Origin: Pachysolen tannophilus NRRL Y-2460
Lineage: Eukaryota
Assembly: GCA_001661245.1 (NCBI GenBank)
Contig: KV454013.1
Coordinates: 1,086,502-1,150,501 of the forward strand
Length of the DNA: 64,000 nucleotides
Direction: 5' to 3'
Shown piece after piece: positions 10,476 through 56,811 of the stretch. The position numbers and the translations under genes were made by a program. Position 1 is the stretch's first letter; every line of letters starts with the position of its first letter. The notes below the pieces were generated by a model. The model had not been told where the DNA came from, searched no databases, and saw only the letters and a program-made list of their open reading frames with translations.

Positions 10476-10849
10476 ACTACTTCAAAACTAAAACTAAATT
10501 GCTCATATGACCATTATTTATACCCTTGTTACCTTATTTGTTTTCCTATACTTTTTTTTTTATTATGATCTTAATATCCTAATTGTAAATTTACTAATGT
10601 TAATAATACTAATGGAAATAATATGACTTGACTTGAGATTTTATGTAGACACACAAGCGGTAAGCTTTTACCTTACCACACTGCAAACTATCACTGTTTA
10701 AGATAACACTTTAAGCGAGCGGTACTAATGTTATAAGCGGTACTAAAGAAAGAAAGAAAAAATAAGCACATAAAGGTAGTGTACTGAGCGCGAAATAAAC
10801 CAAAAGAGTAATAGTAAAAAGGAAAAAAAAAAAAAAAGAACGCCGATAT

Positions 10850-10942
10850 TGACATGGACAGGAATTGAACCTGCAACCTTTCGATGACACTGCCAGAAGT
10901 TTTCAATTGGAGTCGAAAGCTCTACCATTGAGCCACCACATC
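10850..10942 (-). tRNA. tRNA-Trp(CCA) with 21-nt intron (10886-10906)
   Basis: GATGTGGTGGCTCAATGGTAGAGCTTTCGACTCCAA-[intron]-ATCGAAAGGTTGCAGGTTCAATTCCTGTCCATGTCA. Acceptor stem pairs, A and B boxes present, oligo-T terminator at about 10837-10823. Confidence 0.95.
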
Positions 10943-11050
10943 ATTCGGTAATGCAATCGGAAAATATAAGTGTTAATATTAGTTTGGGATTATAGGTAGC
11001 TTGGTAACTTTGCAACTTAGTAACTTAGATTAAATTTCAAATGGGTTCAA

Positions 11051-14306: not shown

Positions 14307-14379
14307 ATGTCTGTTGATGAAGAGTTTGCTCCGTTGAAGAATGATTTGATTTTGAGAGCTGCAAGAGGTGAAGTTGTTG
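14307..14379 (+). CDS. HEM12: Uroporphyrinogen decarboxylase, N-terminal piece
   Basis: [24 protein letters not shown] matches the Hem12 N-terminus. Confidence 0.9.
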
Positions 14380-15327
14380 TTGTACAAGGATCCAAATTTC
14401 CTTGTAAAGTGACTCTACCATTGTTTAATGCAACTGCATCTTCAGGTTTATATAACCAATCTAATGAAACACAAGAATAACCTGAATCACATAAGTTATC
14501 TAATGCGTACCATGAACCTTTAGCAAAGATAGTAATTGGAATTTTTCTTTAATTCCTAATTCTTTTAATTTTAATGGTAATTTAGAACTTATTTGTTTCA
14601 AATAAGGTAATGAAAATTCATTAAATTCATTTGGACCTAATTCTCCACCCCAAGATTCGAAAACTTGTAACATTTGAGCACCTGCTTTAACTTGATGAGC
14701 CAAGAAATCAATAGCAACATCAGTAATTTTTTGTAATAAAACATGTGCTTCTTTTGTATATTTATAAATCCATTCTTTAGCGAATCTAAATAATTTAGAA
14801 CCACCTCCTTCAACCATATATACTAATAAAGTCCAAGGACCACCACAAAATCCTAATAACGGTACTCTACCATTAAGTTTTTTCTAGTAACTGTAATTGA
14901 TTTTAAAGCCCAACCTAATTCTTTTTCAATATCAACTTTCTCATTTAATTTCAATAAATCTTCTGGTTTTCTTAAAGGATCAACAAAATGTGGACCTTGT
15001 TTTTCAATCATTTCAACTTCCATACCCATTGCTTGAGGAATAACCAAGATATCACTAAAGATAATCGCAGCATCAATTAAACCTTCAAAATGTTCAATAG
15101 GCTGTATGGTGATCTCAGAAGCTATCTCAGCATCACGACAAGTCTCAAAGAAATCACGGCCACCTTTAACTTCATGATACTCTGGCAAATAACGTCCGGC
15201 TTGTCTCTATAATTCAACAAAAAAAAAAAAAAAAAAAAAAACAAATCATCATCGTTAATAATAAAACTTGGAAATCTTTATATAAAGAAAATAAAAAGAC
15301 TTACCATAATCCAAACTGGAGGTCTCT
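14380..15327 (-). CDS. HEM12: Uroporphyrinogen decarboxylase, inverted middle piece (inversion 2, 948 bp) with one intron and two 1-nt homopolymer frameshifts
   Basis: (E)RPPVWIM-[intron][10 protein letters not shown]...[15 protein letters not shown]...[20 protein letters not shown]...QVFESW...[10 protein letters not shown]...LDW...LQGNLDPCT. Confidence 0.92.
15207..15304 (-). other. HEM12: Spliceosomal intron in HEM12 (98 nt)
   Basis: GTAAGT donor, TATTAAC branch (15260-15254), poly-T tract, TAG acceptor. Joins WIM to RQAGRY in phase 0. Confidence 0.9.
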
Positions 15328-15497
15328 TGTATGGATCAAAAGAAGTCATTACTCAAAAAGTTGCAAATATGATTAAAGGTTTTAATGGTGGTAAAAAAAA
15401 TTATATCATCAATTTTGGACATGGAACTCATCCCTTCATGGATCCAGAACAGGTTAGATGGTTCTTACAAGAATGTCATAGACTTGGATCCTTATAA
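15328..15497 (+). CDS. HEM12: Uroporphyrinogen decarboxylase, C-terminal piece
   Basis: (M)[55 protein letters not shown]. Confidence 0.9.
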
Positions 15498-15687
15498 ACC
15501 TCTTTTTCCAAATAATTGAAGTTATTTAAAGTAATTGGGAAAATTCCATTTTGTATAGTTAATTCTTAACTTTTTTTATATAAATATTGTTTTGTATTAA
15601 TTTTTCAGTAAATTTTTCATGTTTTAATTAAAAAGAATTTATATGATAATTAAATTAAAAGAATAAGAACAGAAGTAAATAGGTTTA

Positions 15688-16746
15688 ATGTCTAAGATAA
15701 AGAAGGAGAATATCTCACAGTTTCAATCCAATGAGCTTTATATATATCATTTGTCAAGAGATGTGCTAAATTCATTAGAATTGTTGTATTTTGATTCGTT
15801 AACTACAGAGGCAATTTCTCCAAACAGTATTGTTTCGTTAACTTCAAAATCTTTGGAACAACATAATGAACAATTGATGGATAATGAACAATCACAACTG
15901 ATTTCTAATGTTTGTCAAACTTGTGGTTCAAAGTTAGATGGACTTGATGTTAAGAAATCACATTACAAGAGTGATTTTCATAGATTCAACCTCAAGAGAA
16001 AATTACAAAAAGTACCTCCAGTAAGCGAGCTGGAGTTTGATAAAATTATTCAAGATTTGGATGAGAGTATAAGTGGTTCAGATTCTTCAAGTCAAGAAGA
16101 TGATAATGATAGTTATGATGATGATAAGGAAAAAAGGAACTTGGAGACAATATTTGAAAAAACAGATCGTTCTTTGAATAATCTTTCTATTCAAGACAAT
16201 GAACAGAGTGTTCATTATCTAAATACAAAATCACCATTTGTACTCTTCAAATCTAGTCTATTATCACCGGAAAGATGTTTTGGCATATATAAGTCTTCTT
16301 TTGATGTAACGGAATTACATTCGAATCCATTAGAAGCATTAAAGAATTGGAATAGTGTTGATCAATCAAAGAAATATTCAGCATTATTCATGATTGGAGG
16401 TGGGCATTTTGCAGGAGCAATTATATCTCATAATCCGAAACCAGTAAAGGGAAATATAAATGGTTCTTCGGGGGAATCTTTATTAGAGCAGTCAGTCAAT
16501 ATAATCGAACACAAGACATTCCACAGGTATACAACTAGAAGAAAGCAAGGTGGTTCCCAAGGAACCAATGATAATTCTAATGGTAAGGCTAACTCTGCAG
16601 GTTCATCTTTAAGACGTTATAATGAAGCTGCATTGGAGAAAGAAGTTAGAGAGTTGTTAAATAGTTGGAAAAATTATTTGATTAATTGTGAATCTATATT
16701 TATAAGAGCTAATGGTGCCTTGAATAGAAATATTTTGGTTGGATAT
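15688..16746 (+). CDS. VMS1: Vms1/ANKZF1, N-terminal part (C2H2 zinc finger and VLRF1 domain)
   Basis: CQTC...HYKSDFHRFNLKR, FMIGGGHFAGAII, HKTFHRYTTRRKQGGSQ, SAGSSLRRYNE. Stops abruptly after LVGY. Confidence 0.92.
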
Positions 16747-16816
16747 TAATTCAGACAGTAAAGGTAAAAAGTTTATAAATTACATTTTCATAAAAATTAA
16801 TAAAACAGAATTATAG
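16747..16816 (+). CDS. RDH54: Displaced C-terminal codons of RDH54 (inside inversion 3)
   Basis: (N)NSDSKGKKFINYIFIKINKTEL* is in frame with RDH54 once 16747-17751 is flipped. Confidence 0.7.
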
Positions 16817-16884
16817 AAAGATCTATTTATTTATTTAATTTTTTTCAAAAAAAAAAAGGTCAATTTCTATGTAAGCTAGTTTCA

Positions 16885-17751
16885 CTAATTCTTTCTATTC
16901 ATTCTTGCTTCAGCGGCTCTTGCTCTTTGTTCGCGCATCAATCTCATTTTTTGTTCATCAGATAACTGGTTCAACATTGATTGATTCGAAATAGAAGTCA
17001 TCACATTGCCTAGCGATTTTCCTGTTCCGTATTTCAGAACTCTTTCTGTTGCTATTTCCTTTTGGTACAGTTGCAACTCCTTCTCATGCAATAATTTTTT
17101 ATCATTTTCTTCCTTTGATTTGAGCTTTTCTTCTTCATCTAAAAACTCTTCTTTTGACTTCAGAGGTAAATTGACATGGGCATCTTCAACCCAGTTACAA
17201 TACACTTCACCTAAGTTATATCTTGCTATCTGAAATATTTTCTTGATTTCTTTATTAGAAGTTAATTCAAATGGTGTTTTCCCCAAATCATTTTTAATAC
17301 ATGGATTTGCCTTTAAATTGTTCAATAACACTTGTGTAATATAAGGTATATTATTGTATGTAGCGCAGTGCAACAAAGTTGGAGTCGTCAGGTACTCAGA
17401 ACTTGGTTTTAATTCAAAATCTGGTGAAAGTTTATTTTTCTTGATATAACTAATCAAAGCAGGTGCTTTGGATTTTTTTATAAAGCCAATCAATTCAATT
17501 GTATGCTTTTCATCTTCAGTCAACTCCTGAGCTGCTTCCAGTTTTCTTTCAGCTATTTGCCTTGAGTTTATCATATTTTGTTCTTGTTTCAAAAGTTTTT
17601 CTTTTAGTTTTTCATTAGTCTTTGGTAAATCCATTATATTCATATATGTCAAGTTAATCCATGCTTTTTTCAACTCAGACAGTGTAGCCCTCTTGGTGGT
17701 GAAAGGAAATGACTTAATTCTTTTGTCTTCATTTTTTAATACAGATCCTTC
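16885..17751 (-). CDS. VMS1: Vms1 C-terminal part (ankyrin repeats, coiled coil, VIM), inverted
   Basis: EGSVLKNEDKRIKSFPFTTKRAT.SELKKAW...TPTLLH...GKTPFEL...RLMREQRARAAEARM. Confidence 0.92.
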   Translation of the reverse strand, partial: EGSVLKNEDKRIKSFPFTTKRATLSELKKAWINLTYMNIMDLPKTNEKLKEKLLKQEQNMINSRQIAERKLEAAQELTEDEKHTIELIGFIKKSKAPALISYIKKNKLSPDFELKPSSEYLTTPTLLHCATYNNIPYITQVLLNNLKANPCIKNDLGKTPFELTSNKEIKKIFQIARYNLGEVYCNWVEDAHVNLPLKSKEEFLDEEEKLKSKEENDKKLLHEKELQLYQKEIATERVLKYGTGKSLGNVMTSISNQSMLNQLSDEQKMRLMREQRARAAEARMNRKN

Positions 17752-20381
17752 TTTCTAATTATATTTTCCAAGACTTCATCATAAGCAATAAATTCAGAGC
17801 ATACTTCAGGATCGATATGTTTGTAATCTTGTAAACTCTTAATTGCATTTTTCTTCTTTATCGGTTCTTGTGATACTTGCTTAAAATCTAATGCAGAAAT
17901 CCAGTCTGGTTTCGCATCATTAGATTTGTCTTCAAGTTCTTCTTTTTCTTCTTCTTCTGATTCAACCGGTTCAGAACCTTCAACTTCTTCTCCGGTACCT
18001 GTACACTTACATTCCAATAAGCTATGCGTATTACTTTTAATGTCTGCATCAACTGTGAATAAATCTCTTAAATCGCTGTATTCGAATAGGTCATTTTTTG
18101 AACTTGATTTATCGTCTAAAAACTTGTCACTCAAATTATTTTTCATTAGCTGTCTTTGGAAAATCTTTTCGTCAATTGCCCCAGATGTTAACAAACGATA
18201 TACAAAGACAGGCCTTTTTTGACCGTCTCTATGGATTCTTGCCATTGCTTGCAAGTCAACAGACGGATTCCAGTCATTATCAAATAAAATTAATCTCGAA
18301 GCACCTATCAAATTCAACCCGCATCCGCCTGATTTTGCTGATAATAAAAATACAAATGATGACAGCGATGATGAAGTGTTAAAATCGTTGACGACTTTAT
18401 CGCGGACCTTACTTTGCGTCGATCCATCCAATCTTAAATACGACATATTATGAGCATCTAAAATCGTTTGTAATAAATCTAACGTTTGAGTAAAATTTGA
18501 AATTAATACAACTTTCTCGTTAGACCCAAGGTCCCTAATACTGTTTAATAACTTGACCACTATTTTCATCTTCCCACTAGCTACTTTCTTAGATAAATCA
18601 TATTTACGTCCAGAATCATTCCCAGATATTTTGGTAAATATATCATCCTCATTGACTAATGCTGGAGAATTGCAAATTTTCCTGAAAACTGTAATCAAGC
18701 TCAAAGAATCACTAAAGTTATTTTTTTGAATCGTCTTATTGAACATTTGCGAATCCAAAACCAGGTTAAATAATGATAATTGCAATTTAGTCGGAGGAAC
18801 AAACAAAACAAGATCTGTTCTTGGAGGCAAAAATTTCGAAATAACCGTGTTGGTACGTCTCAAGATAAAAGTTCTAGTTATTTGGATCAACTCATCCGAT
18901 TTCTCGTTCCCCATTTCTATCACCTGTTTATTTTTACAATTCACTTCTCTAGCCCTCAAGATTGGATTAATAAAGTTTCTTTGAAATTTGTCAAAACTTC
19001 CAAATATACCTGGATTAACAAAATTAATTATATTATAAAACTCGGTTAAATCATTCTGAATTGGAGTTCCTGTTAACAATATTCTTTTCTCAATATCTAA
19101 AGTATTTAAAACTTTTAAAACTTTATTTTGAGAACTTTTTAATCTATGTCCTTCATCGCATACCAATAAATCGAAATCAACGGTTTCTAATTCATCGGCC
19201 ATAGTCAATACTTTCTCATAGCCTAATATCAAAACTTGATATACTCTGGTCCTACCAAAGCTCTTAATATTGGCTTTATCAGCTTTCAGGTTATTACTAC
19301 CATTTATTGTTAAGACACTTATTTTATTCATTCCCAACCATTTCTTAAATTCCTTTTTCCAGTTCCCAATCAAAGTAACTGGGCATACGACAAGTACTCT
19401 CTTAGCAACAGGAGATTGACTCAGGTAGGGAGATTGTCTTAACAAAGTCCAAATGAGGGTAATCGTCATTAAGGTCTTACCAAGTCCCATTTCATCAGCT
19501 AATAGAGCACCATTACCCCCATGATCTCTGAACCCCATTATACATTCATATAAAAACAAAACACCTTCTCTTTGATGAGGTCTCAAATGTTTTGATAAGC
19601 ATGGATCAACAACAACATCAACAACATCACTTTCAGGTTCATTTGGAGGACGTTTCATGACTAATGCTTCTTCTGCATTTGGATTATATAATGGTGGTCT
19701 TTTTTCCTTTGGTGGTCTACTAAGTGTATTTGCAGTAATAACTTGCTTAAATTTTGGTAAATTTATAGCTGGCTTTATAATTGGAGGTAAATATTTTATC
19801 ACTCTTGGAGGCTGTTGCTGAATTATATTTGTCTCTACATCCAGAGTATTCGAAGATGAATGTGACTGTAAATATCGCTGATATTTAGCTAATTCATCTG
19901 TATTAGTTATTTCATAATCAACTTCCATTTCATAATTACCTATCTTTACCAATCCTTCAAGATTTACCTTACCCAATGATCTGCATTGCTCTCTGTAATT
20001 TTCTCCCCCAGTTAAATCACATCTAAAAGTACCAGTCCCATCTTGATTCAAAATCAACAATCCATCACCATCCCAAGTTTTATTTTTTTTCATTGTTTTC
20101 TTTCTCCAAATGACAAAGAATATCTTAGAACCTCCTTGTCCTTCCCTTGAACTTATACACCTATCACAACTTTCAACCTGAACCTTCTTATTAACGGGAA
20201 GTTCAACATCAGAATGATGATGCGATATACTTCTCTTCTGTACCTCTTGTTCAATTACAACCTTGGCGTTTCCCTGATTTTTCAACTGATCAGTAATCGA
20301 ATTTGAAGACTTCATTCTCGGCGCTCTAAATGGCGTATTGAAAGAACCGCCAGAGTTCCCCCTCTGACTATTTCTATACAT
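17752..20381 (-). CDS. RDH54: Rad54-family SNF2 DNA translocase Rdh54/Tid1 (main part)
   Basis: WRKKTMKKNKTWDGDG N-terminal motif, LADEMGLGKT, CDEGHRLK, TGTPIQNDL, QAMARIHRDGQ. Confidence 0.9.
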
Positions 20382-20568
20382 CACAACTCCTATATTTCTA
20401 TTCCCATCTAATTCAAATAATTCTTCTCTTGTTTACAAAAACTGCAATTTTTGAAGTATTTATATTTTTTTATATTTTATTTTTTGGCGCGATTCCTAAA
20501 ATATACTACAACAACGAGAATGTTGTATTTTAACTATACTTTTCTTAAAAAGAATATACACAATTTAT

Positions 20569-37636: not shown

Positions 37637-39402
37637 TTACTCTTCTATATTAGATTCTTTCTTTTCATTTGGAATTTCAAATTCTTTAAGTTCATCTTTT
37701 GTTAATTTTTCAATTCCTTTTGCGGTTAAGAAACTAAAAATTTGATGATCACCATTAAATCCATCAATAAATGCAAAAAACCCATAAAAGACATTTTCCT
37801 GTGATTCTTCTTTATAAATTTTATCATATATATATTTCATTTTAAAATCTTGCATTTCCTTTTCATATTTGGTGAATTCTATAGGATTATAACCAAAACT
37901 TTCTAATTTCGAATTATAACCTTCATATACAGGTTGTTCTAATAATAAACCTAAAGCAGGAGCTTTTGGAATATTAATTTTATCTGGACCAAATGCTTGT
38001 GAGATTCTATCTAATGGGCATCCACAACGAACAACCAATGTTGCCATTGCAATCATTTTTCTAATTTGATGTAACATAAAAGATTGACCATGAATTTTAA
38101 TTGAACACCATTCTGTTCCTTCAATAACAAAAGGATCTGATACAGTAATGGATTTCATATATCTGTTACTACTTGGATCTTTAAAATGTTTTCCCAAGGT
38201 ATAATTATGGAAATTATGATGACCAATATATTGTTGCATTGCATCTCTAAGTAATTGTAAACGTTCTTGACTAATTCTATAAGATCTTCTAAATTCATTA
38301 TCCAATTTTTTAATTCTTTTAATTAATTTTGAAGTTTCTGTTTCAATCTTTGTATCTTCTTGATTATTAATTAATCCATTTAATGCAATTTCAATTTGTT
38401 CATCAGATATTGAATTTTCACGTAAATTAGTATATACTGAATCCCACCATTCTTGTCCCTCTTTATCATCTCTTGCCACTCCAGGAAATTGGATTTTTGC
38501 TTCAGTAACTTGTTTCCCCAAAGGTGAAGTAGGTTTTGGAGGTAAGAGTGAATAAGTTGGAAGTAAATATTCATAAATTCTTGAAGAACACATCTTTCTA
38601 CAATCAAAAGTTTTATTAACTCTTTCCATACCCCAAACTCTAATCTGATCTGGTAAATGACTATTAATCTTGGATAATACTTCAGGATCTTCAATTATCA
38701 TCTTAAGTGAAATAACATTTCCAGAAGCATGAACACCTTTATCAGTTCTTGCAGCTCTTTGGAAACTTGATTTTTTCAAATCATTTGAATTATCTCTTGA
38801 TATTGCTCCTGATTTCACAAAAGCATCAAACAAATCACCTTCAATAGTCTTATGAGGAGGATTCAACTGCATACCATGATACCCAGTTCCGCAATATCCA
38901 ATCAAACATGCAATTTTTTTCTTTGGTTTCCTCTCTTCTCTTGGCAATGGATTCCCATTTTCGTCTAATATACGACTAAATAAAATAAAAAATATATAAA
39001 AAATATATAAATTGTTAGTATCTTTCAACGCTATCCATGGTAATATCAGAAAAAAGGAAATCAGCAAATAAATTAAAAAAAAATACAGCCCCACAAATCC
39101 ACAAACCAATTCAACAGGTTATAAAATATGCTTTTTTTCCTTTCCTCTTTATTGTAAAAACATACCCACGAGTCCGTTCTCTCACGCCATTCTTTTTCGT
39201 CATCCCTATCTCGCTTCTGTTTTTTCTTTGGTTGGTATACGTAATCATCATTGTTTCTATCATTTTTCTTTTGTAAACCAATTGAATCAACTGGCTTTTC
39301 TGTAATTGAAGATGAAGTTGAATTTTCAATTTCTGGAGAAACTTGGGAACCATTTTTTTGCTCAAAAACTGTCTCCTCCAAAACTTTTTCTCCTTGTACC
39401 AT
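37637..39402 (-). CDS. PUS1: tRNA pseudouridine synthase Pus1; exon 1 about 39402-39166, exon 2 38975-37637
   Basis: GYCGTGYHGMQ, RAARTDKGVHA, GQSFMLHQIRKM. The intron has GTATGT (39165), TACTAAC (39020-39014) and TAG (38976). Exon phases disagree by 1 nt (see findings). Confidence 0.88.
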
Positions 39403-39594
39403 CTCTCAAAAGAAACCAATATCAAAAAAAACTACCAATCAAGTAACTCTCTCTCTCTCTCTTAAAACGATAAACTCCTCTAAACCTCTCCAATAATTAG
39501 GTATCCTAAAGGTATTTTATCTTATTATATCCATCTAACAAACTAACTAACTAACTAATCTTTAGTACCGCTTTTTTTTGGGTTTTTTCATGTG

Positions 39595-39868: not shown

Positions 39869-40032
39869 CTTTCTTTTCCTGGGCCTATCTATCTATCTAT
39901 CTATCTATCAGAAAGATAGAACTTGTTAAAAAAGAAGGTTAAGCTGATAATCTGAAACTAGAAGAATAATCTAGTGTTTTTAGCTTGTTGTGTTGTTTCT
40001 TTTCTTTTTTTTTTTGAAAATTAGTTGTTATC

Positions 40033-40578
40033 ATGAGACCATTAACGGAAGAAGAGACAAAAGTTGTTTTTGAAAAACTTGCAAATTACATAGGTAGAAA
40101 TATTGCATTTTTGATAGATAATAAAGAAGATCCACATGTATTTAGATTACAAAAAGATCGAGTTTATTATGTTTCTGAGAGGATATCTAAGTTTGCTACA
40201 TCTGTATCTAGACCAAATTTGATGTCTTTAGGAATTTGTTTTGGTAAATTTACCAAAACTGGGAAATTTAGATTACATATAACTTCTTTAGAATATCTTT
40301 CTAAATATGCCAAATATAAAGTTTGGATTAAACCAAATGGTGAAATGCCATTTTTGTATGGCAATCATGTATTAAAAGCACATATTGGTAAGATGAGTGA
40401 TGATATTCCAGAACATGCTGGTGTGGTGGTTCTTTCAATGAGTGATATTCCATTAGGTTTTGGAGTAAGTGCAAAATCTACAAATGAAGCTAGAAATTTA
40501 CAACCAAATGGAATTGTTGCCTTTAGACAAGGTGATATTGGAGAATATTTAAGAGAAGAAGATACTTTATTCACATAA
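40033..40578 (+). CDS. NIP7: 60S biogenesis factor Nip7
   Basis: [21 protein letters not shown]...[11 protein letters not shown]. Confidence 0.96.
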
Positions 40579-40666
40579 GATGTATAGTTAGATAGATAGA
40601 TAAAAAGAAGCTTTGTGGAATTGAAAAAAAAAAATTTTAAAGTAAAAATTATAAAATGATTTGCTT

Positions 40667-42673
40667 TTAACGACGGCCTTTCTTTTTATTTTTCTTATTA
40701 CCTCCTTTCTTGCTTGTATTAACAGATGAACTGCTTGGATTTGCATTATTGTTATTTGCAATGTTAATCTCTGTAGTAGCATCTGCAGTACCACCTTGAG
40801 TAAGATTTTTTTTACCTCTTTTAGGTTTATAAGTACTTCTATCTTTTAAAGGTAACCATCTTTCAGGATCTGAAATCTTATTAACTAAATGATCTGGGAT
40901 TTTTTTATTTCTTTTTCTTTTTTTAATATTTGAATTAACAGATGGTAAAGAACGTTTTGGTAATGTTGTATTTGTTGAATCAACAATCGCTTCAGAATTA
41001 AGTAACTCATCAACATCTATATTACTCGTAAGTTCATCAATTGGTTTTAAAATTGAATCAAGATTATCATTAGTACCATTCAAAATTACTGAAATTAATT
41101 TATTATTTGGATTTGCATCATGTAATTTTTGGAAAATCCTATTATAAAAATTAGCATGATTATTGGTTGATAAAATTCTAAAACCTAAATCTTCAATAAT
41201 TTTATAATTATTTTCTAATGAAATATCAACTAATTTTAAAAAATCTTGTTCTTCTAAAATTTTTAAAAAGTTAGATAAATTTCTATCCATTTTTTCAAAA
41301 ATTGAAAGTAATAACAAGGCCAAATTAGGATGTTGAACTAATAATAAATCATTTTCTTTAAATAAACTTTCCAATATTAATAAACTATTGTTATAATTGT
41401 TTATACTATTATTATATTGAATGGCAATCAAAGATAAAGCTAAGTTATTTTTTAATTTAATAGCCAATCTAAATAACTTGGAAGCTATTGATTTCACATC
41501 TTCTTCTTCATCATCTTCTTCTTCTTGTTCAAATATATCAATTTGATATTTATACAAGATGGATAAAGCTGATGGTAATAAAGAATTATTAAAATTATGC
41601 TCATATGAATCTAATTTTTTCTTTTTTATATCCTTACCAATCTTATAAGATAATAAAATTTCATTTTTATCCAACTTATAAGTTTGAGATAAAGTTAATT
41701 TATTAGAAATATTATTGAGTATTGAAGGAAATTGTAAATTCTTATAAATTAAATTTGGATTTATCTTTTCATCTTGTAAATATTTGATATAGTATAAATT
41801 ATTCAAAATTATCAATTTTAAAGCCTTATCTTCATTATAATTATTCAGTTCTATTTCTTGCAATAATTCTTTCAAAAAAGACTCACCAGTGGCAATATTG
41901 TTTTTTTTCAAATAACAATAACTTATTTGTAAAATTATTGGTGATAATTCTTGAAATTTATCTTTACTAGAATAGTTTTTAACACTTAATTCACAAATTT
42001 CTTTAGCTTTTAATAAATCTTCAATTGCCCTCTCATAATTCCCTAGTCCAATTTCTATTAAAGCATTGTTAAACAACAAATCGTACGAGCTATCAACGTC
42101 TGAAGAGATTGGATTAGAATCTTTAATTGCAATCAGATCGTCTCTCAATAACAACGATTGAGCAATAACAGCTCTCTCATTTACACTTAAATCCAAAATC
42201 TCAAACGATGAAGACAGCGACTGTGATGACAGCGACTGCTGCTGCTGCTGCTGCTGCAGTGACTTGCCACTACTGGAAATCAAATCACGGTATATCTTCA
42301 ATGCCTTCTTATTATCACCAATCTTATAAGATTCCTGTGCTTGTAAATGTAACAACGCTACTTCATTGTTGAATCTATCTTCATTGGCCTGAAATAGAAC
42401 ACCTAATAAATCATGCTTGTTCAATTTGTAATAAATATAAGCTTTTTCCAATAACAATGATGGAGACTCAACTGACTCATGAGTACTTAAAAGCTTGAAT
42501 GCCGCTTGATACTTATCCAAATTAATCAACGATACAAGACAAGTCTTTAATACTTGAACATTTCCTGGCTGTTTTTGCAAGATTTTCAACGAATAATCAT
42601 ATACCCGTTGATGCTCTTCATTCCTAGAGTGCACTTCCAATTGCTGGAATAGATCTGCAAGAGATGGTGCCAT
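40667..42673 (-). CDS. SRP72: Signal recognition particle subunit Srp72
   Basis: TPR N-terminus (LEKAYIYYKLN) and the RNA-binding motif DPERWLPLKDRSTYKP, then TQGG. Confidence 0.92.
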   Translation of the reverse strand: MAPSLADLFQQLEVHSRNEEHQRVYDYSLKILQKQPGNVQVLKTCLVSLINLDKYQAAFKLLSTHESVESPSLLLEKAYIYYKLNKHDLLGVLFQANEDRFNNEVALLHLQAQESYKIGDNKKALKIYRDLISSSGKSLQQQQQQQSLSSQSLSSSFEILDLSVNERAVIAQSLLLRDDLIAIKDSNPISSDVDSSYDLLFNNALIEIGLGNYERAIEDLLKAKEICELSVKNYSSKDKFQELSPIILQISYCYLKKNNIATGESFLKELLQEIELNNYNEDKALKLIILNNLYYIKYLQDEKINPNLIYKNLQFPSILNNISNKLTLSQTYKLDKNEILLSYKIGKDIKKKKLDSYEHNFNNSLLPSALSILYKYQIDIFEQEEEDDEEEDVKSIASKLFRLAIKLKNNLALSLIAIQYNNSINNYNNSLLILESLFKENDLLLVQHPNLALLLLSIFEKMDRNLSNFLKILEEQDFLKLVDISLENNYKIIEDLGFRILSTNNHANFYNRIFQKLHDANPNNKLISVILNGTNDNLDSILKPIDELTSNIDVDELLNSEAIVDSTNTTLPKRSLPSVNSNIKKRKRNKKIPDHLVNKISDPERWLPLKDRSTYKPKRGKKNLTQGGTADATTEINIANNNNANPSSSSVNTSKKGGNKKNKKKGRR

Positions 42674-42877
42674 CCTCAAGTCGTAATTCTTCAGTTTAAT
42701 CTATATAATTTTGATGATTTTTGTCAATTTTTCATCGATTTTTTTTTGTTGTTGATGAAAAAAACAAAAAAAAATTTTTTTTTTTGGTTTAAATTTTGAC
42801 CATTTTGATAACACAATTATTGCAACAGTAATCGGTGGTAATCGGTGACGATAAGGTGACGATAAGGTGTGAGATTG

Positions 42878-48340: not shown

Positions 48341-49435
48341 ATGACTTATCCAGATGTTTTCCAAGGTTTTGGTGTTGGTGACGCAAAGAAATGGTCTACT
48401 CCTACTTTAGTGGAGTATGCACCTAAACCATTAGATTCTAATGATGTTGATATTGAGATTGAATATTGTGGGATTTGTTCTAGTGATTTACATACGATTA
48501 AAGGTGAATGGGGTCAATTAAGAAGAGATGATTTAGTTGTTGGGCATGAGATTGTTGGTACTGTTGTTGCAGTGGGTCCTAAAGTTTCTAGTCTTGTTGT
48601 TGGTCAAAGAGTTGGAGTTGGTGCACAAAATTTGGCATGTTTAAATTGTAATAGATGTCAAGATAATAATGAACATTATTGTATAACTAAAAATGTTAGT
48701 ACTTATAATAAAAAATTTCCTAATCATGATTATTTTTCTCAAGGTGGTTATGCTTCTCATCATAGATGTCATGAATATTTTGCCTTTCCAATTCCTGATG
48801 AGATTGAATCAAAATATGCTGCTCCTTTATTATGTGGTGGATTAACAGTTTATTCACCTTTAAAAAGATCAGGATGTGGTTTAAATACTACTATTGGAGT
48901 TATTGGTATTGGTGGTTTAGGTCATATGGCAATAATGCTTGCAAAAGCAATGGGTGCTGAAGTTTATGCTTTTTCAAGAAGTTCTGCCAAGAAAGATGAA
49001 GCAATTAAAATGGGTGCAGATCATTTTATTGCAACAGGTGAATCAGAAAATTGGAATCAAGAATTAACTGATAAATTTGATATGATTTTAAATTGTGCTT
49101 CATATATTTCTGGTATTACTTTAAATAGTTATTTATCAATTTTAAAAGTTGATAAATTTTTCGTTAATGTTGGTTTACCTTGTCTGGGTGATGTTTATGA
49201 ATTTTCTCCATTTACTACAATTTCTAATGCTGCAGGTATTAAAAGTTCAAAATTAGGTTCAAGAAAAGAAGTTTTAGAATTATTTGAATTATGTGCTAAA
49301 CATAATATAAAACCATGGATTGAAGAAATTCCAATTAATGGAAAAAATCTTTCAAATGCATTAATTAGATTGGATAAAGGTGATGTTAGATATAGATTTG
49401 TCTTGACTAATTTTAAACAATTTTTTTCATCCTAA
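48341..49435 (+). CDS. NADPH-dependent cinnamyl-type alcohol dehydrogenase (Adh6/Adh7 family)
   Basis: CGICSSDLH, GHEIVG, structural Zn Cys cluster, APLLCGGLTVYSPL, GIGGLGH, GDVRYRF. Confidence 0.9.
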   Translation: MTYPDVFQGFGVGDAKKWSTPTLVEYAPKPLDSNDVDIEIEYCGICSSDLHTIKGEWGQLRRDDLVVGHEIVGTVVAVGPKVSSLVVGQRVGVGAQNLACLNCNRCQDNNEHYCITKNVSTYNKKFPNHDYFSQGGYASHHRCHEYFAFPIPDEIESKYAAPLLCGGLTVYSPLKRSGCGLNTTIGVIGIGGLGHMAIMLAKAMGAEVYAFSRSSAKKDEAIKMGADHFIATGESENWNQELTDKFDMILNCASYISGITLNSYLSILKVDKFFVNVGLPCLGDVYEFSPFTTISNAAGIKSSKLGSRKEVLELFELCAKHNIKPWIEEIPINGKNLSNALIRLDKGDVRYRFVLTNFKQFFSS

Positions 49436-49544
49436 AAAAAAATTTAATCATTTTTTTATCCATTACTTCTTTTTTAGTCACTGGGTTGAAACCTAAAAGA
49501 GATCAATCTGGACCTGTTTTAAAATGGATGAAGTGGATGTACTG

Positions 49545-49720
49545 TTTGATGTTGCTGATGCTGCTGATGCCGTTGTGTTGGTGCAGCGGGAGCGGGAGAG
49601 GGAGAGAGAGCATAAGCGGTAGCGGCGGCCCGGAAGTAGTGGGGCGGCCTTGCAGTGGGGGGCTGGAAGTAGAGTTGGGGCCGGCGCTTTCTGTGGGATG
49701 TGTATGTGTCACTCGCCACG
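49545..49720. promoter_or_regulatory. GC-rich island upstream of the GNAT gene
   Basis: Abrupt G-rich stretch with GTGGGG, GCGGGAG and CGG motifs in AT-rich surroundings, followed by TA-rich sequence. Confidence 0.4.
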
Positions 49721-50053
49721 AATAGCCTAAAAAGGAAATTTTCCATTTATTTTTTTTTTATATAGTTTTCCGCGGTGCCTGAAGAGTTTTTATCAGGCTT
49801 AAATAGATAATACATATATTATATTGATTTATATATGTTAAGATATATATATATATTAATAAATATATATATATTTGTATGAAATAATTTATCGGGGAAA
49901 TCATGGAAATATATATTGCATAATAATAACAAGGTTGGAATAGTTAAACTGAGTTTTTTTTTTTTTTTTATTTTTTGTAATTTGATAATTGGTTTATGTT
50001 TTATCAGTTTGTTATTATTATTATATAATCTATGAAAAAATAATTGTATTAGG

Positions 50054-52415: not shown

Positions 52416-55232
52416 TTAAGCAACACCATTTATGATAGCCTCACACAACTGTTCGTCTTCACCTCTCACCTGTGTCTTCATCATAATTCCTCTTGACGAA
52501 TTAGCAGCTAATCTAATGATACATGCAACTTTAGCAGAGTTCAAAATACTCTTACCAAATAACTTCAAAACATGAGTAGTTGAGTTTGAATCAGTAACTA
52601 TATCTGATCCATCTACTGGCATCATTGAAAGAACTCTGATCAATCTTTGAACAATTTCTTGTAAATCATTAGAATCAGATAAGTTGTAAACACCACTTTG
52701 TTCAATTTTAGAAAGTTCGTCCCATTGGTGGGTGAAATTCCCTGTGAATGAAGGAATAATGAAATCTCCTGGTGTCAATGATAATTCTTCAATTTGATAT
52801 TCATCTTGGAAACCTTCATCCCCTTCAAAAGATTCACCTGTAGTAGTATCAACTTCCTTTGATATAAATGAAAGAGTATTTGTGAATGAAGTCAATTCAA
52901 TTCCCGAAGGTCTTGTGAATGATACGTAAACAGTACCTTTTGATTGAGGTTTCAATTTTTCAATAGGCATTATGAATTCTTCTTCGTATAATTCATCTGC
53001 TTCAGGTGATGAAACCACTGTAACTTCATTTAATTCAGATTCTTCTAAAGTATTTTCAATATTGAATTGTAAGACCAAATGATCTTCAAAAACATGTTTA
53101 ATAACTTCAACAACAAATTCAATTTCTCTCTCTGTCAATTCAACAACTGAAGATGAGTGTAACAAGTTACCATAGTTTTTAAATTCTGGTATTGCCGATA
53201 ATTCTTGAGAATATTGTTGTTGTAATACTGTATTTTTGATGTATTGATTGCTTTCTTCTCTATCTTCAGCTCCATATCCATTGTTCTCACCATTTGTGTT
53301 TCTATTCTTATTTTGTTCTACATCTGCATTTGCTTCTTCTTCCAATAATCTTGTCTTTTCTCTGAATTCATAAGCTTTCAGTTCATCATCTGATATAGTT
53401 GGTACAGATTTGATATCAAATGATTGGATAAAGCTTTCCTTATCACCTTGCATATACAAACTTAATTTTTGTTCCAATACAGGTAATGAGTATTTTGTAT
53501 TTGGAGAAATAAAATCTTTTAATTTTTCCTTTTCATCTGGTGAAGACAATTCTTCAAAAGAAGTAATCAATTTTAAAGATAAAGCAGCTCTATCTCTAAC
53601 TTCATCATCAACATCATTTAAACATCTACTTAATAAAATCTTTATACTTTTGCTAATTGATTCATCACCAATCAATGCAAATTTAGACAATGCAATAACT
53701 GCAGAAGATCTAACAATTGAATTTTCCAAGACAACACGATTATAAATGTGTCTAATATATAAAGTTGGATTTGTTGTCTTTGGTCCCTCATTACCCAATA
53801 AATGTAAAATTCTTACAGCTAATTCTGTAAATTCACAATCTTCAATAAATTCACATAAATTTTCAAGAGCTAAATCTCTTGATTGAGGCACAAACTTAAT
53901 CATATCAAATAATGCTTCAACAATTGCATTTTTGAAAACAAATCCACCATCATCTCTAAGACAATCATTTAAGAAATTTAACATTGTCTTATATTTTTCT
54001 GGGAATTTTAAAGATAATGTTCTAATTGCATCAATTACAACAATTTTGAATTCATCTGAAATATCATTCATAAATTTCAATATTGTTTTAATCAATCTAT
54101 CAACATTATCTGAATTACCAGTTTTCAATAATGTGGTAATTGCATAAGTTGAAACAGATCTGTTTGAATCATTAATTAAATTTTCTAATTCCACATTACA
54201 TATAACAATTTTTTCTGGTGTTTTCATTGCAATTTTATTTAAAATTCTAACAGCGGCAAATCTTGTAACTGTTCTTGGAACAGATAATAAGATTTGTAAA
54301 CAATTTATTGCAGCTAAATGTTGTTCACTAGAAAAAGAAGAAATTCCTAATATTGTCTTTGCAGCTTCTAATTCAACCATATCTGATTTATTTCTTAACC
54401 AGTTATTTAAAACTGGGAATAATGGCTGAGCATATGAAGGAACATCTTTAATAATTTGACCAATGTAACGGATTAATTGAACAATTGCCAATGGACTTCT
54501 TAATGGAGAATTAGAATTACTCAATTGATTGATCAATTTCATAAGTGCCATCTTATCATGATTTCTTAAATGATATAACAATCCCAACGCGTGATATTGA
54601 TAAACATATGTACTCGAAGGCAATTTGTTAACACCATAATTTTCATGGGTTAAAAATTGTTGTGGAGGGAAAGTCTTTGTAGCGCTAATGGCTTCCTGGG
54701 TTTCATTTGTCCAACGCTTAACAACATCTTTCAGCACAGCTAATAAATGATATGATGAAACTAAAGTAGCCGAGGTAATACTTGGATTTCTATCAACAAC
54801 ACAATTCTTCATCAATCTTTCAGTAGCATGAACCGTGGAAGCATCCACAATTCTTGTTAAAGATCTTATAGCATTCGGCTTATAAATAGCTTCACCATTT
54901 TGAATATCTTTCATAATTGAAGAAGTGACCATCAATACATCCTCACTAATAACCGACAACTCCTTAATAGCCAAATAAACCATCTGTCTAAGAGAAGAAT
55001 CCTTATGTTGGAAGAGTTTTGAAATTGAGAAAAACAAAGTCGTAGCCTCTTGTGATGCAAAACTATCACCTAAATATAATAACCTCAATAATCTCGACAA
55101 CAATAACCGACATCTCTTGGCCTGAACTGGTGAAGTATTAAAAGCATGAAGACAATCCTGGAAAACAGTCATCTTATCCGGCAACGAGCCGGAATCAATG
55201 TCCTCAAATTTTTTATAAGATAGAGTTGACAT
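52416..55232 (-). CDS. SEC21: COPI coatomer gamma subunit
   Basis: MSTLSYKK...LPDKMTVFQDC, LCEFIEDCEF, IRHIYNRVVLEN, DDEVRDRA. Confidence 0.95.
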   Translation of the reverse strand: MSTLSYKKFEDIDSGSLPDKMTVFQDCLHAFNTSPVQAKRCRLLLSRLLRLLYLGDSFASQEATTLFFSISKLFQHKDSSLRQMVYLAIKELSVISEDVLMVTSSIMKDIQNGEAIYKPNAIRSLTRIVDASTVHATERLMKNCVVDRNPSITSATLVSSYHLLAVLKDVVKRWTNETQEAISATKTFPPQQFLTHENYGVNKLPSSTYVYQYHALGLLYHLRNHDKMALMKLINQLSNSNSPLRSPLAIVQLIRYIGQIIKDVPSYAQPLFPVLNNWLRNKSDMVELEAAKTILGISSFSSEQHLAAINCLQILLSVPRTVTRFAAVRILNKIAMKTPEKIVICNVELENLINDSNRSVSTYAITTLLKTGNSDNVDRLIKTILKFMNDISDEFKIVVIDAIRTLSLKFPEKYKTMLNFLNDCLRDDGGFVFKNAIVEALFDMIKFVPQSRDLALENLCEFIEDCEFTELAVRILHLLGNEGPKTTNPTLYIRHIYNRVVLENSIVRSSAVIALSKFALIGDESISKSIKILLSRCLNDVDDEVRDRAALSLKLITSFEELSSPDEKEKLKDFISPNTKYSLPVLEQKLSLYMQGDKESFIQSFDIKSVPTISDDELKAYEFREKTRLLEEEANADVEQNKNRNTNGENNGYGAEDREESNQYIKNTVLQQQYSQELSAIPEFKNYGNLLHSSSVVELTEREIEFVVEVIKHVFEDHLVLQFNIENTLEESELNEVTVVSSPEADELYEEEFIMPIEKLKPQSKGTVYVSFTRPSGIELTSFTNTLSFISKEVDTTTGESFEGDEGFQDEYQIEELSLTPGDFIIPSFTGNFTHQWDELSKIEQSGVYNLSDSNDLQEIVQRLIRVLSMMPVDGSDIVTDSNSTTHVLKLFGKSILNSAKVACIIRLAANSSRGIMMKTQVRGEDEQLCEAIINGVA

Positions 55233-55583
55233 TGTTTAAATAAATACCACTACTATAACAACAACAATAACAATAACAATAACAATAATACTGAGGAAAA
55301 TCCTCTCCTATTGGCGCTACGTCAAACCTTTTATAAAAATACAAAAAAAAAATAAAAAAAAAAATTCGATATTTCCAAAAGATAATACCTAACCCAATTT
55401 CCCTTGATTGGATTGTTTTTAATTGATTTTAACTGTTCTTGCTATGTTATATATATATTATTATATATTATATAGATAATAATACTTAACTACGTGTAGA
55501 TTCATTACTTGATCTTTTTTTTTTTTCCTTTGTTTGAAATTCTCAATGAATTTTTCTGCCAAAAAAAAAAAACCAAAAAAAAA

Positions 55584-55810
55584 NNNNNNNNNNNNNNNNN
55601 NNNNNNNNNNNNNNNNNNNNNNNNNNNNNNNNNNNNNNNNNNNNNNNNNNNNNNNNNNNNNNNNNNNNNNNNNNNNNNNNNNNNNNNNNNNNNNNNNNNN
55701 NNNNNNNNNNNNNNNNNNNNNNNNNNNNNNNNNNNNNNNNNNNNNNNNNNNNNNNNNNNNNNNNNNNNNNNNNNNNNNNNNNNNNNNNNNNNNNNNNNNN
55801 NNNNNNNNNN
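55584..55810. other. Assembly gap (N run)
   Basis: Run of n characters. Confidence 1.
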
Positions 55811-56500
55811 CCATTTTGGATATCCTTCATAATTGAAGAAGTGACCATCAATACATCCTCACTAATAACCGACAACTCCTTAATAGCCAAATAAACCATC
55901 TGTCTAAGAGAAGAATCCTTATGTTGGAAGAGTTTTGAAATTGAGAAAAACAAAGTCGTAGCCTCTTGTGATGCCAAACTATGACCTAAATATGATAACC
56001 TCAATAATCTCGACAACAATAACCGACATCTCTTGGTGAACTGGTGAATATAAAAAGCATGAAGACAATCCTGGAAAACAGTCATCTTATCCGGCAACGA
56101 GCCGGAATCAATGTCCTCAAATTTTTTATAAGATAGAGTTGACATTGTTTAAATAAATACCACTACTATAACAACAACAATAACAATAACAATAACAATA
56201 ATACTGAGGAAAATCCTCTCCTATTGGCGCTACGTCAAACCTTTTATAAAAATACAAAAAAAAAAATAAAAAAAAAAAAATTCGATATTTCCAAAAAGAT
56301 AATACCTAACCCAATTTCCCTTGATTGGATTGTTTTTAATTGATTTTAACTGTTCTTGCTATGTTATATATATATTATTATATATTATATAGATAATAAT
56401 ACTTAACTACGTGTAGATTCATTACTTGATCTTTTTTTTTTTTTCCTTTGTTTGAAATTCTCAATGAATTTTTCTGCCAAAAAAAAAAAAACCAAAAAAA
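55811..56500. repeat. Near-identical direct copy of 54895-55583 (SEC21 5' end and promoter) across the gap
   Basis: Same sequence on both sides of the N run. Mismatches are concentrated near the contig edge and in homopolymer lengths. Confidence 0.9.
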
Positions 56501-56811
56501 AAAAAAAAAAAAAAATAAAAAAAATTTCGCAGCAAAAAATCCGAAAATTCAACGTGTCAATAAAAACTTGTGCGCCCGTGTCGTATTTTTTCTTGACACA
56601 TTGCCGTGCTGTGTCGTGTCTTGCATTTATGTCGCAGTTCAAGTGCCACGACCAAAAGTGACATTTCTTTTGTGACATTTTATGTGACCATTTTCTTTGT
56701 GATACACACTATTATATGTCACTGAGCTGTAAACTATAGTGACATACGACATTCTTTTCTTTCAGTTGGTTTGTTTAATGTTCATTGTTCATCTTATACT
56801 ATAATATATTA

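What the first reader, a model, noticed from the sequence alone, without database searches (positions are those of the whole stretch)
14307..15497. HEM12 is split +/-/+ by an internal 948-bp inversion
Seen: junction 1 rejoins as GTT GTT G|AG AGA CCT (VVERP; 14379 to 15327 minus) and junction 2 as TGT ACA A|TG TAT GGA (CTMYG; 14380 minus to 15328). After intron removal and two 1-nt corrections the product is 364 aa, a normal Hem12 length. Established: uroporphyrinogen decarboxylase is required for heme synthesis. All three pieces look well conserved rather than decayed, so the break is very recent, reversible or artefactual.
Basis: partly seen in the sequence, partly recalled or inferred. Interest (0 to 1): 0.75.

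Follow-up and report, generated by a model that had tools for sequence, protein, structure and literature searches.

The report
Flipped block in yeast HEM12 assembly
A 948-base stretch inside the haem-synthesis gene HEM12 of the yeast Pachysolen tannophilus is written backwards in the public draft genome, most likely through an assembly mistake and not because the gene is really broken.

Summary
HEM12 (uroporphyrinogen decarboxylase) starts at 14307 on the + strand. It continues on the - strand from 15327 down to 14380, through a 98-nt intron and two single-A undercalls in A-runs, then returns to the + strand at 15328 and stops at 15497. Read through, it gives 364 aa.

The window is the JGI draft of Pachysolen tannophilus NRRL Y-2460. 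The public gene model ODV96229.1 (267 aa) is built across the same junctions.

- A second in-place flip of about 1 kb (16747-17754) lies 1.4 kb downstream. It splits the neighbouring gene VMS1 and rewrites the tail of RDH54.
- Neither flip has inverted repeats at its ends.
- Neither gene shows any decay: 0 of 135 conserved HEM12 columns and 0 of 80 VMS1 columns deviate.
- The only frame errors seen in about 46 kb of coding sequence lie inside flipped block 1.
- A scaffold gap in the same window is flanked by an error-laden duplicate of about 690 bp.
- The strain grows on glycerol in defined medium without haem.

The best reading is local mis-orientation errors in a draft assembly (about 0.85). 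A real, very recent double inversion is not excluded, because no reads or independent assembly could be consulted.

The parts
14307..14379 (+). HEM12 start: ATG plus 24 codons and 1 nt ([24 protein letters not shown] + G)
   Evidence: P0003 residues 5-24 align at 14319-14378, 90% identity
14380..15327 (-). Flipped block 1 (948 bp). It holds the end of HEM12 exon 1, the intron and most of exon 2 in reverse orientation.
15305..15327 (-). Rest of HEM12 exon 1 (..ERPPVWIM)
   Evidence: The same splice is used in public model P0008.
15207..15304 (-). HEM12 intron, 98 nt, GTAAGT...TATAG, with a T23 tract on the sense strand
14380..15206 (-). HEM12 exon 2, main part (URO-D profile 24-293), in three frames because of two 1-nt slips
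14878..14883 (-). Frame break 1: the A-run is one A short (relatives read ..TRKKLNGR..)
14542..14546 (-). Frame break 2: the A-run is one A short (relatives read ..GI.E.IP.T.FAKG..)
15328..15497 (+). HEM12 end: 2 nt plus 55 codons plus stop (URO-D profile 295-345)
15688..16746 (+). VMS1 N-terminal 353 codons (bVLRF1 profile 2-103), ending at a stop created by the junction. This is public model P0121.
16747..17754 (-). Flipped block 2 (1008 bp; the right end could be 17751). It holds the VMS1 C-terminal 289 codons (bVLRF1 profile 104-143), the stop and the 3' flank.
17736..20432 (-). RDH54-like SNF2 helicase gene. Its last 6 codons and stop lie inside flipped block 2, so its tail as assembled is probably wrong.
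55584..55810 (.). Scaffold gap (227 N). Sequence 54895-55583 is repeated at 55811-56515 with substitutions and homopolymer indels, an uncollapsed contig overlap.

Best explanation
The window is part of the JGI draft assembly of Pachysolen tannophilus NRRL Y-2460. HEM12 in the living yeast is most likely an ordinary, colinear, intron-containing gene of 364 codons on the + strand. In the deposited sequence a 948-bp block (14380-15327) was written in the wrong orientation, and the same happened to a block of about 1 kb (16747-17754) in the next gene, VMS1. Block 1 also carries two single-base homopolymer undercalls, so it comes from poorly supported sequence. Shown: the flips, their exact ends, the absence of decay, the second flip, the clustering of errors, and the presence of the flips in the public record. 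Inferred: that the cause is assembly or gap closure and not biology. The step that produced it (a mis-oriented small contig or a gap patch) is not known.
For: 1. The flips are in the public record. P0008 (ODV96229.1, PACTADRAFT_75390, 267 aa, on a 1,751,653-bp scaffold) starts at the - strand ATG at 15349, reads across junction 2, skips both frame breaks with invented introns, and ends in antisense of the true N-terminus. P0121, the 353-aa VMS1 stub, ends at junction 3.
2. There is a second in-place flip 1.4 kb away. bVLRF1 profile positions 2-103 lie on + (to 16746) and 104-143 on - (from 17754). tblastn with P0122 places residues 7-334 on + and 335-612 on -.
3. There is no decay. The HEM12 read-through deviates at 0 of 135 columns that are at least 95% conserved among 71 orthologues, apart from the X I placed at a break. 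The VMS1 read-through (642 aa) deviates at 0 of 80 such columns among 113 orthologues.
4. Frame errors are confined to block 1: 2 of 5 A/T runs of 5 or more in its coding part, against 0 of 342 in 45,173 bp of other open coding frames (one-sided Fisher 1.7e-4). Of the 65 other ORFs scanned, 31 matched a Pfam family. None shows a domain split over adjacent frames or strands, and the only cut-off match is the duplicate at the gap in point 5.
5. Another draft artefact lies in the same window: a 227-N gap flanked by a duplicate of about 690 bp that differs by substitutions and homopolymer indels.
6. The assembly is a draft, with contig N50 in the 10^4-bp bin and scaffold N50 in the 10^6-bp bin (PMC13232491, passages).
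7. The breakpoints carry no inverted repeat or microhomology beyond chance (6 nt; 66-67% of 500 controls are as long or longer).
8. P. tannophilus (CBS4044 is the strain named in that paper) was grown in yeast nitrogen base with glycerol or glucose and no haem (PMC3610204, passages). Liu et al. 2012, as cited there, title CBS 4044 and NRRL Y-2460 as one strain. No second P. tannophilus URO-D protein was among the 120 best of 1006 hits.
Against: No reads, no read depth and no independent assembly could be examined, so the artefact is inferred and not shown. The junctions are base-exact with nothing lost or gained (junction 4 only to within 3 nt), which is not what a carelessly placed contig usually leaves, and no N run marks them. 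Block 2 has no frame error in its 870 coding bases, so low sequence quality is shown only for block 1. The 'intact' comparison set was chosen as open frames, which favours zero errors there. The sequencing and assembly method could not be read because Riley et al. 2016 is not held. Any statement about 454 or gap-patching would be recall or guesswork.
Confidence: 0.85

Rival explanations
1. The two flips are real and very recent in the DNA stock that was sequenced: a complex rearrangement with two in-place inversions repaired by end joining. That clone would then lack functional HEM12 and VMS1.
For: The junctions are base-exact and carry no repeat, as end joining would leave. The structure is in the deposited assembly and was accepted by the annotators. 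The absence of decay fits a very recent event.
Against: HEM12 is the only URO-D gene seen for this species, and P. tannophilus (CBS4044, given as the same strain as NRRL Y-2460 in the title of Liu et al. 2012) grows on glycerol in defined medium without haem (PMC3610204 passages). Three lesions in HEM12 (one flip, two frameshifts) with 0 of 135 conserved residues changed is not how neutral decay looks. This rests on the recalled rule that substitutions far outnumber indels. Keeping both blocks in place and in order is one of many possible re-ligation outcomes. A further assembly artefact lies in the same window.
Confidence: 0.1
2. HEM12 here is a dead copy, and a second functional HEM12 elsewhere in the genome supplies the enzyme.
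For: None found. It is only that the window covers 64 kb of a 12.6-Mb genome.
Against: Among the 120 best of 1006 URO-D hits the only P. tannophilus protein is the model from this locus. No shorter P. tannophilus fragment was found either: 8 hits at E<=1e-30 among 173 candidates, the best at 73% identity. The locus keeps the conserved HEM12-VMS1 neighbourhood seen in the locus tags of at least 6 other yeasts and shows no decay.
Confidence: 0.03
3. The blocks are programmed, reversible DNA switches that turn HEM12 and VMS1 off and on.
For: The species does use a DNA flip at its mating-type locus: an 8-kb region flanked by 2-kb inverted repeats (PMC6692504, passages).
Against: Known flip switches need inverted repeats at their ends. 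Here the longest inverted match near either pair of breakpoints is 6 nt, no better than random positions. No recombinase or transposase domain appeared among the 65 ORFs scanned. The four breakpoints share no motif.
Confidence: 0.01

Closest known systems
HEM12 / uroporphyrinogen decarboxylase of budding yeasts (Pfam URO-D PF01208; S. cerevisiae YDR047W, name recalled and seen in the hit list)
   Same: The read-through is 364 aa and 85.7% identical to the closest orthologue, P0003. The URO-D profile is covered from 24 to 345. All 135 conserved columns are kept. VMS1 is the next gene, as in other yeasts.
   Different: As deposited, the middle 948 bp are in reverse orientation and two A-runs are one base short. 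An intron sits after ..PPVWIM.
Local mis-orientation and uncollapsed-overlap errors of draft scaffold assemblies (general knowledge)
   Same: There are small blocks of about 1 kb in the wrong orientation. Errors cluster in one neighbourhood. A gap is flanked by a near-identical duplicate. The assembly has low contig N50 but high scaffold N50.
   Different: No N run marks the block ends and the joins are base-exact. The responsible pipeline step could not be identified.
Flip/flop mating-type inversion of P. tannophilus (PMC6692504, passages)
   Same: It is a DNA inversion in the same species.
   Different: The MAT switch is 8 kb and bounded by 2-kb inverted repeats. The blocks here are about 1 kb, have no inverted repeats and destroy housekeeping genes.

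Membership tests
Uroporphyrinogen decarboxylase (URO-D, PF01208) / yeast HEM12 | Significant match to the URO-D profile over its whole length | tested here: met
   Four pieces tile profile 24-133, 131-234, 238-293 and 295-345 of 346, with E-values from 3e-35 to 5.8e-11. The first 24 aa are too short to score.
Uroporphyrinogen decarboxylase (URO-D, PF01208) / yeast HEM12 | Residues conserved in orthologues are retained | tested here: met
   0 of 76 invariant and 0 of 135 columns at least 95% conserved deviate among 71 orthologues of 340-375 aa. These are 71 of the 120 listed hits; 48 outside that length range and P0008 were left out. The only mismatch is the X I put at a frame break.
Uroporphyrinogen decarboxylase (URO-D, PF01208) / yeast HEM12 | One uninterrupted reading frame on one strand (a functional gene as deposited) | tested here: not met
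   The gene is split +/-/+ with two frame breaks. This failure is attributed to the assembly.
Uroporphyrinogen decarboxylase (URO-D, PF01208) / yeast HEM12 | Enzyme activity / haem prototrophy depends on it | not testable with these tools
   There is only indirect evidence: P. tannophilus (CBS4044 in that paper) grows in YNB with glycerol and no haem (PMC3610204 passages).
Programmed invertible DNA switch | Inverted repeats at both ends of the invertible segment | tested here: not met
   The longest inverted match within +-30 bp is 6 nt for both blocks; 66% and 67% of 500 random control pairs are as long or longer. No junction-spanning inverted repeat is among the 25 longest of 389 pairs.
Programmed invertible DNA switch | A site-specific recombinase encoded nearby | tested here: not met
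   No recombinase, integrase or transposase family was found among the 65 ORFs of 70 aa or more given to Pfam (65 of the 130 listed; those left out were the HEM12, VMS1 and RDH54 pieces scanned, the frames opened by the N run, and frames lying inside longer ORFs).
Assembly mis-orientation artefact | Reads and independent assemblies support the colinear order, not the deposited junctions | not testable with these tools
   No read archive or yeast contig collection is available here. The protein database holds no independent P. tannophilus HEM12.
Assembly mis-orientation artefact | Co-occurrence with other error signatures in the same assembly region | tested here: met
   There is a second flip in VMS1, frame errors only inside block 1, and a duplicated gap flank with errors.

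The most novel reading that the evidence does not exclude
The two in-place inversions are real in the sequenced stock of the type strain. A very recent complex rearrangement would have knocked out HEM12 and VMS1 and altered RDH54. This implies either a haem-auxotrophic subclone that was carried along in rich medium, or a mixed culture in which both arrangements coexist.
Probability: 0.08. Interest if true: 0.45.

Novelty: not a real feature. Interest (0 to 1): 0.12.

Why it matters
As biology it probably does not matter: the yeast almost certainly has a normal HEM12. It does matter for users of this reference. At least three public gene models at this locus are wrong. The HEM12 model (ODV96229.1) is a 267-aa chimera. 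VMS1 is a 353-aa stub of a protein of about 642 aa. The RDH54 tail is also probably wrong. Surveys of gene presence and absence that use this proteome could score haem synthesis or VMS1 as defective in the CUG-Ala yeast. Two flips within 3.5 kb also suggest the assembly may hold more of them, which would be worth a genome-wide check.

Tried and rejected
- Independent P. tannophilus sequence was sought in the protein collection. The 127-aa middle piece was searched against longer proteins (1006 hits among 1256 candidates, 120 listed; the only 100% match is the model from this locus). It was also searched against proteins of similar length (8 hits at E<=1e-30 among 173 candidates, best 73% identity). 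Nothing independent was found, so real versus artefact stays unchecked at the data level.
- Riley et al. 2016 and Liu et al. 2012 are not held, so the sequencing and assembly methods are unknown to me. The supplements of PMC4937558, which might list peptides, are not available.
- Literature searches for 'Pachysolen' with 'HEM12' found 0 papers. The search for 'Pachysolen tannophilus', 'misassembly' and 'inversion' gave only PMC6692504, which says nothing on this locus. The search for the assembler listed no paper that names the species.
- Other suspected frameshifts were checked and dismissed. The pair 37637-39118 / 39073-39405 (-) looks like two exons of a PUS1-like gene. The pair 40365-40685 / 40667-42700 was dismissed because the short frame overlaps NIP7 (40018-40575, +) on the opposite strand and matches no family, while the 677-aa frame matches SRP72 families. 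The frames at 49417-49757 are open because of a GC-rich island.
- Repeats at the breakpoints and base composition across the blocks show nothing.
- The bacterial contig, phage, plasmid and E. coli collections were not searched, because they cannot hold this yeast.

Full report
**What is in the sequence.**
- On the + strand an ATG at 14307 opens 24 codons plus one base, ending at 14379.
- The reading frame continues on the - strand at 15327 (..G|AG AGA CCT CCA GTT TGG ATT ATG).
- It then meets an intron with GTAAGT and TATAG ends (15304..15207, 98 nt) and resumes at 15206, running to 14380.
- It returns to the + strand at 15328 (A|TG TAT GGA) and stops at 15495-15497. The reversed block is 14380-15327, 948 bp.
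- Pfam URO-D (346 positions) is tiled without loss. Positions 24-133, 131-234 and 238-293 lie on three - strand frames and 295-345 on the + strand. The 24-aa N-terminal piece is too short to score.
- tblastn with the closest full-length orthologue (P0003, 364 aa) gives the same order of pieces.
- The two frame changes are each one A missing from an A-run (T6 at 14878-14883 and T5 at 14542-14546 on the + strand), at places where relatives read ..TRKKLNGR.. and ..E.IP.T.FAKG...
- Read through by coordinates, with N at both breaks, the product is 364 aa with a single terminal stop and no CTG codon.

**Where the window comes from.** A search with the 127-aa middle piece found one protein at 100% identity. 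It is P0008, 'hypothetical protein PACTADRAFT_75390 [Pachysolen tannophilus NRRL Y-2460]', accession ODV96229.1, 267 aa, on a scaffold of 1,751,653 bp.
- Its sequence is a - strand model. It starts at the ATG at 15349 and reads across junction 2 ([15 protein letters not shown]).
- It uses the true intron, jumps both frame breaks with invented introns, and ends in the antisense frame of the true N-terminus.
- The flip and both slips are therefore in the deposited JGI draft and were not introduced later.
- That assembly (GCA_001661245.1, LZCH01, 12.60 Mb) has contig N50 in the 10^4-bp bin and scaffold N50 in the 10^6-bp bin (PMC13232491, passages).

**A second flip next door.** The ORF at 15679-16746 (+) carries a zinc finger and bVLRF1 profile positions 2-103, ending on its last residue. 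The ORF at 16888-17754 (-) begins with profile positions 104-143.
- Full-length VMS1 orthologues align with residues 7-334 on + (to 16746) and 335-612 on - (from 17751).
- The block 16747-17754 (1008 bp) is therefore also reversed in place. Relatives lack one residue at the join, so the right end could be 17751.
- The public VMS1 model P0121 is a 353-aa stub ending at this junction, whereas the read-through is 642 aa.
- The convergent RDH54-like helicase gene (17739-20432, -) has its last six codons inside the block. As assembled it ends ..ENIIRKKDAY. With the block turned back it would end ..ENIISNSDSKGKKFINYIFIKINKTEL.
- HEM12 and VMS1 are neighbours in other yeasts, judging from consecutive locus tags in at least six species. 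The outer pieces here keep that arrangement.

**No sign of decay.** Among 71 orthologues of 340-375 aa there are 76 invariant columns and 135 columns at least 95% conserved. These are 71 of the 120 listed hits; 48 outside the length range and P0008 were left out.
- The P. tannophilus read-through differs at none of these columns, apart from the X I placed at a break. It is 85.7% identical to P0003.
- For VMS1, 0 of 80 conserved columns differ among 113 orthologues (113 of the 119 proteins P0122-P0240, chosen by length 560-623 aa).
- If the two indels were real post-inactivation mutations, many more substitutions would be expected. This rests on the recalled rule that substitutions far outnumber indels.

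**The errors cluster.** In the coding part of block 1, 2 of 5 A/T runs of five or more carry a frame error.
- In 45,173 bp of other open coding frames in the window, 0 of 342 such runs do (one-sided Fisher 1.7e-4). The comparison frames were chosen because they are open, which is a caveat.
- Of the 65 other ORFs given to Pfam, 31 matched a family. None shows a domain split over adjacent frames or strands, and the only cut-off match is the duplicated coatomer-gamma start at the gap.
- The suspicious adjacent ORFs turned out to be an intron, a short frame antisense to NIP7 with no family match, or a GC-rich island.
- Block 2 has no frame error in 870 coding bases.
- The window's single gap (227 N at 55584-55810) is flanked by a duplicate of about 690 bp. 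Sequence 54895-55583 is repeated at 55811-56515 and differs by substitutions and homopolymer-length changes. This also duplicates the start of the coatomer-gamma gene. That is a typical uncollapsed contig overlap.

**No mechanism for a natural switch.** The breakpoints cannot be shifted, because the outer and inner bases are not complementary. The longest inverted match within 30 bp of either pair of breakpoints is 6 nt, which 66-67% of 500 random control pairs equal or exceed. No recombinase was seen. The species' known DNA flip, at MAT, is 8 kb and bounded by 2-kb inverted repeats (PMC6692504, passages).

**Physiology.** P. tannophilus (CBS4044 is the strain named in that paper) was grown in yeast nitrogen base without amino acids, with glycerol or glucose and no haem (PMC3610204, passages). 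CBS 4044 and NRRL Y-2460 are given as one strain in the title of Liu et al. 2012, as cited. No second URO-D protein of the species was among the listed hits. A strain with its only HEM12 broken three times should not grow this way; this last step rests on established knowledge of haem biosynthesis.

**Verdict.** The most likely cause is local mis-orientation of two blocks of about 1 kb during assembly or gap closure, with block 1 built from poorly supported sequence (confidence about 0.85). Three things keep this from certainty.
- The joins are base-exact and unmarked by N.
- I could not read the assembly methods.
- No reads, independent contigs or peptides were available.

A real, very recent double inversion in the sequenced stock remains possible (about 0.1). 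A second functional copy (about 0.03) and a programmed switch (about 0.01) are unlikely.

Noticed in passing
window 15688-17754: A second in-place reversed block (16747-17754, about 1 kb) splits VMS1. The public model is a 353-aa stub of a protein of about 642 aa.
   Followed up: yes
window 17736-17760 and 16747-16840: The RDH54-like helicase ends inside flipped block 2. Its deposited C-terminus (..RKKDAY) is probably an artefact. With the block turned back, the frame stays open for 24 more codons.
   Followed up: partly
window 54895-56515: A 227-N gap is flanked by a near-identical duplicate of about 690 bp (92-99% identity by segment, with substitutions and homopolymer indels). It duplicates the start of the coatomer-gamma (SEC21-like) gene.
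   Followed up: yes
window 14379, 15327, 16746, 17754: All four breakpoints fall on window coordinates divisible by 3, so the two blocks (948 and 1008 bp) and the spacer (1419 bp) are all multiples of 3. The chance is about 1 in 27. No explanation was found, and the phase relative to codons differs between junctions.
   Followed up: no
window 49500-49750: A GC-rich, G-skewed island (up to 66% GC in a genome of about 30% GC) lies between an ADH-like gene and a GNAT gene. It is open in five of six frames. Rfam gives no match at the gathering score or at E<=1.
   Followed up: partly
window 37637-39405 (-): A PUS1-like pseudouridine synthase appears to have an N-terminal exon (39073-39405) separated from the main ORF by an intron. 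It is not a frameshift.
   Followed up: partly
P0001 (Wickerhamomyces ciferrii, 350 aa): This public HEM12 model lacks the conserved ..[17 protein letters not shown].. stretch at the place where P. tannophilus has its intron. That suggests a mis-predicted intron in that species' annotation.
   Followed up: no
window 10849-10943 (-): This is the single tRNA gene of the window, tRNA-Trp(CCA). It is 95 nt long, so it probably contains an intron.
   Followed up: no
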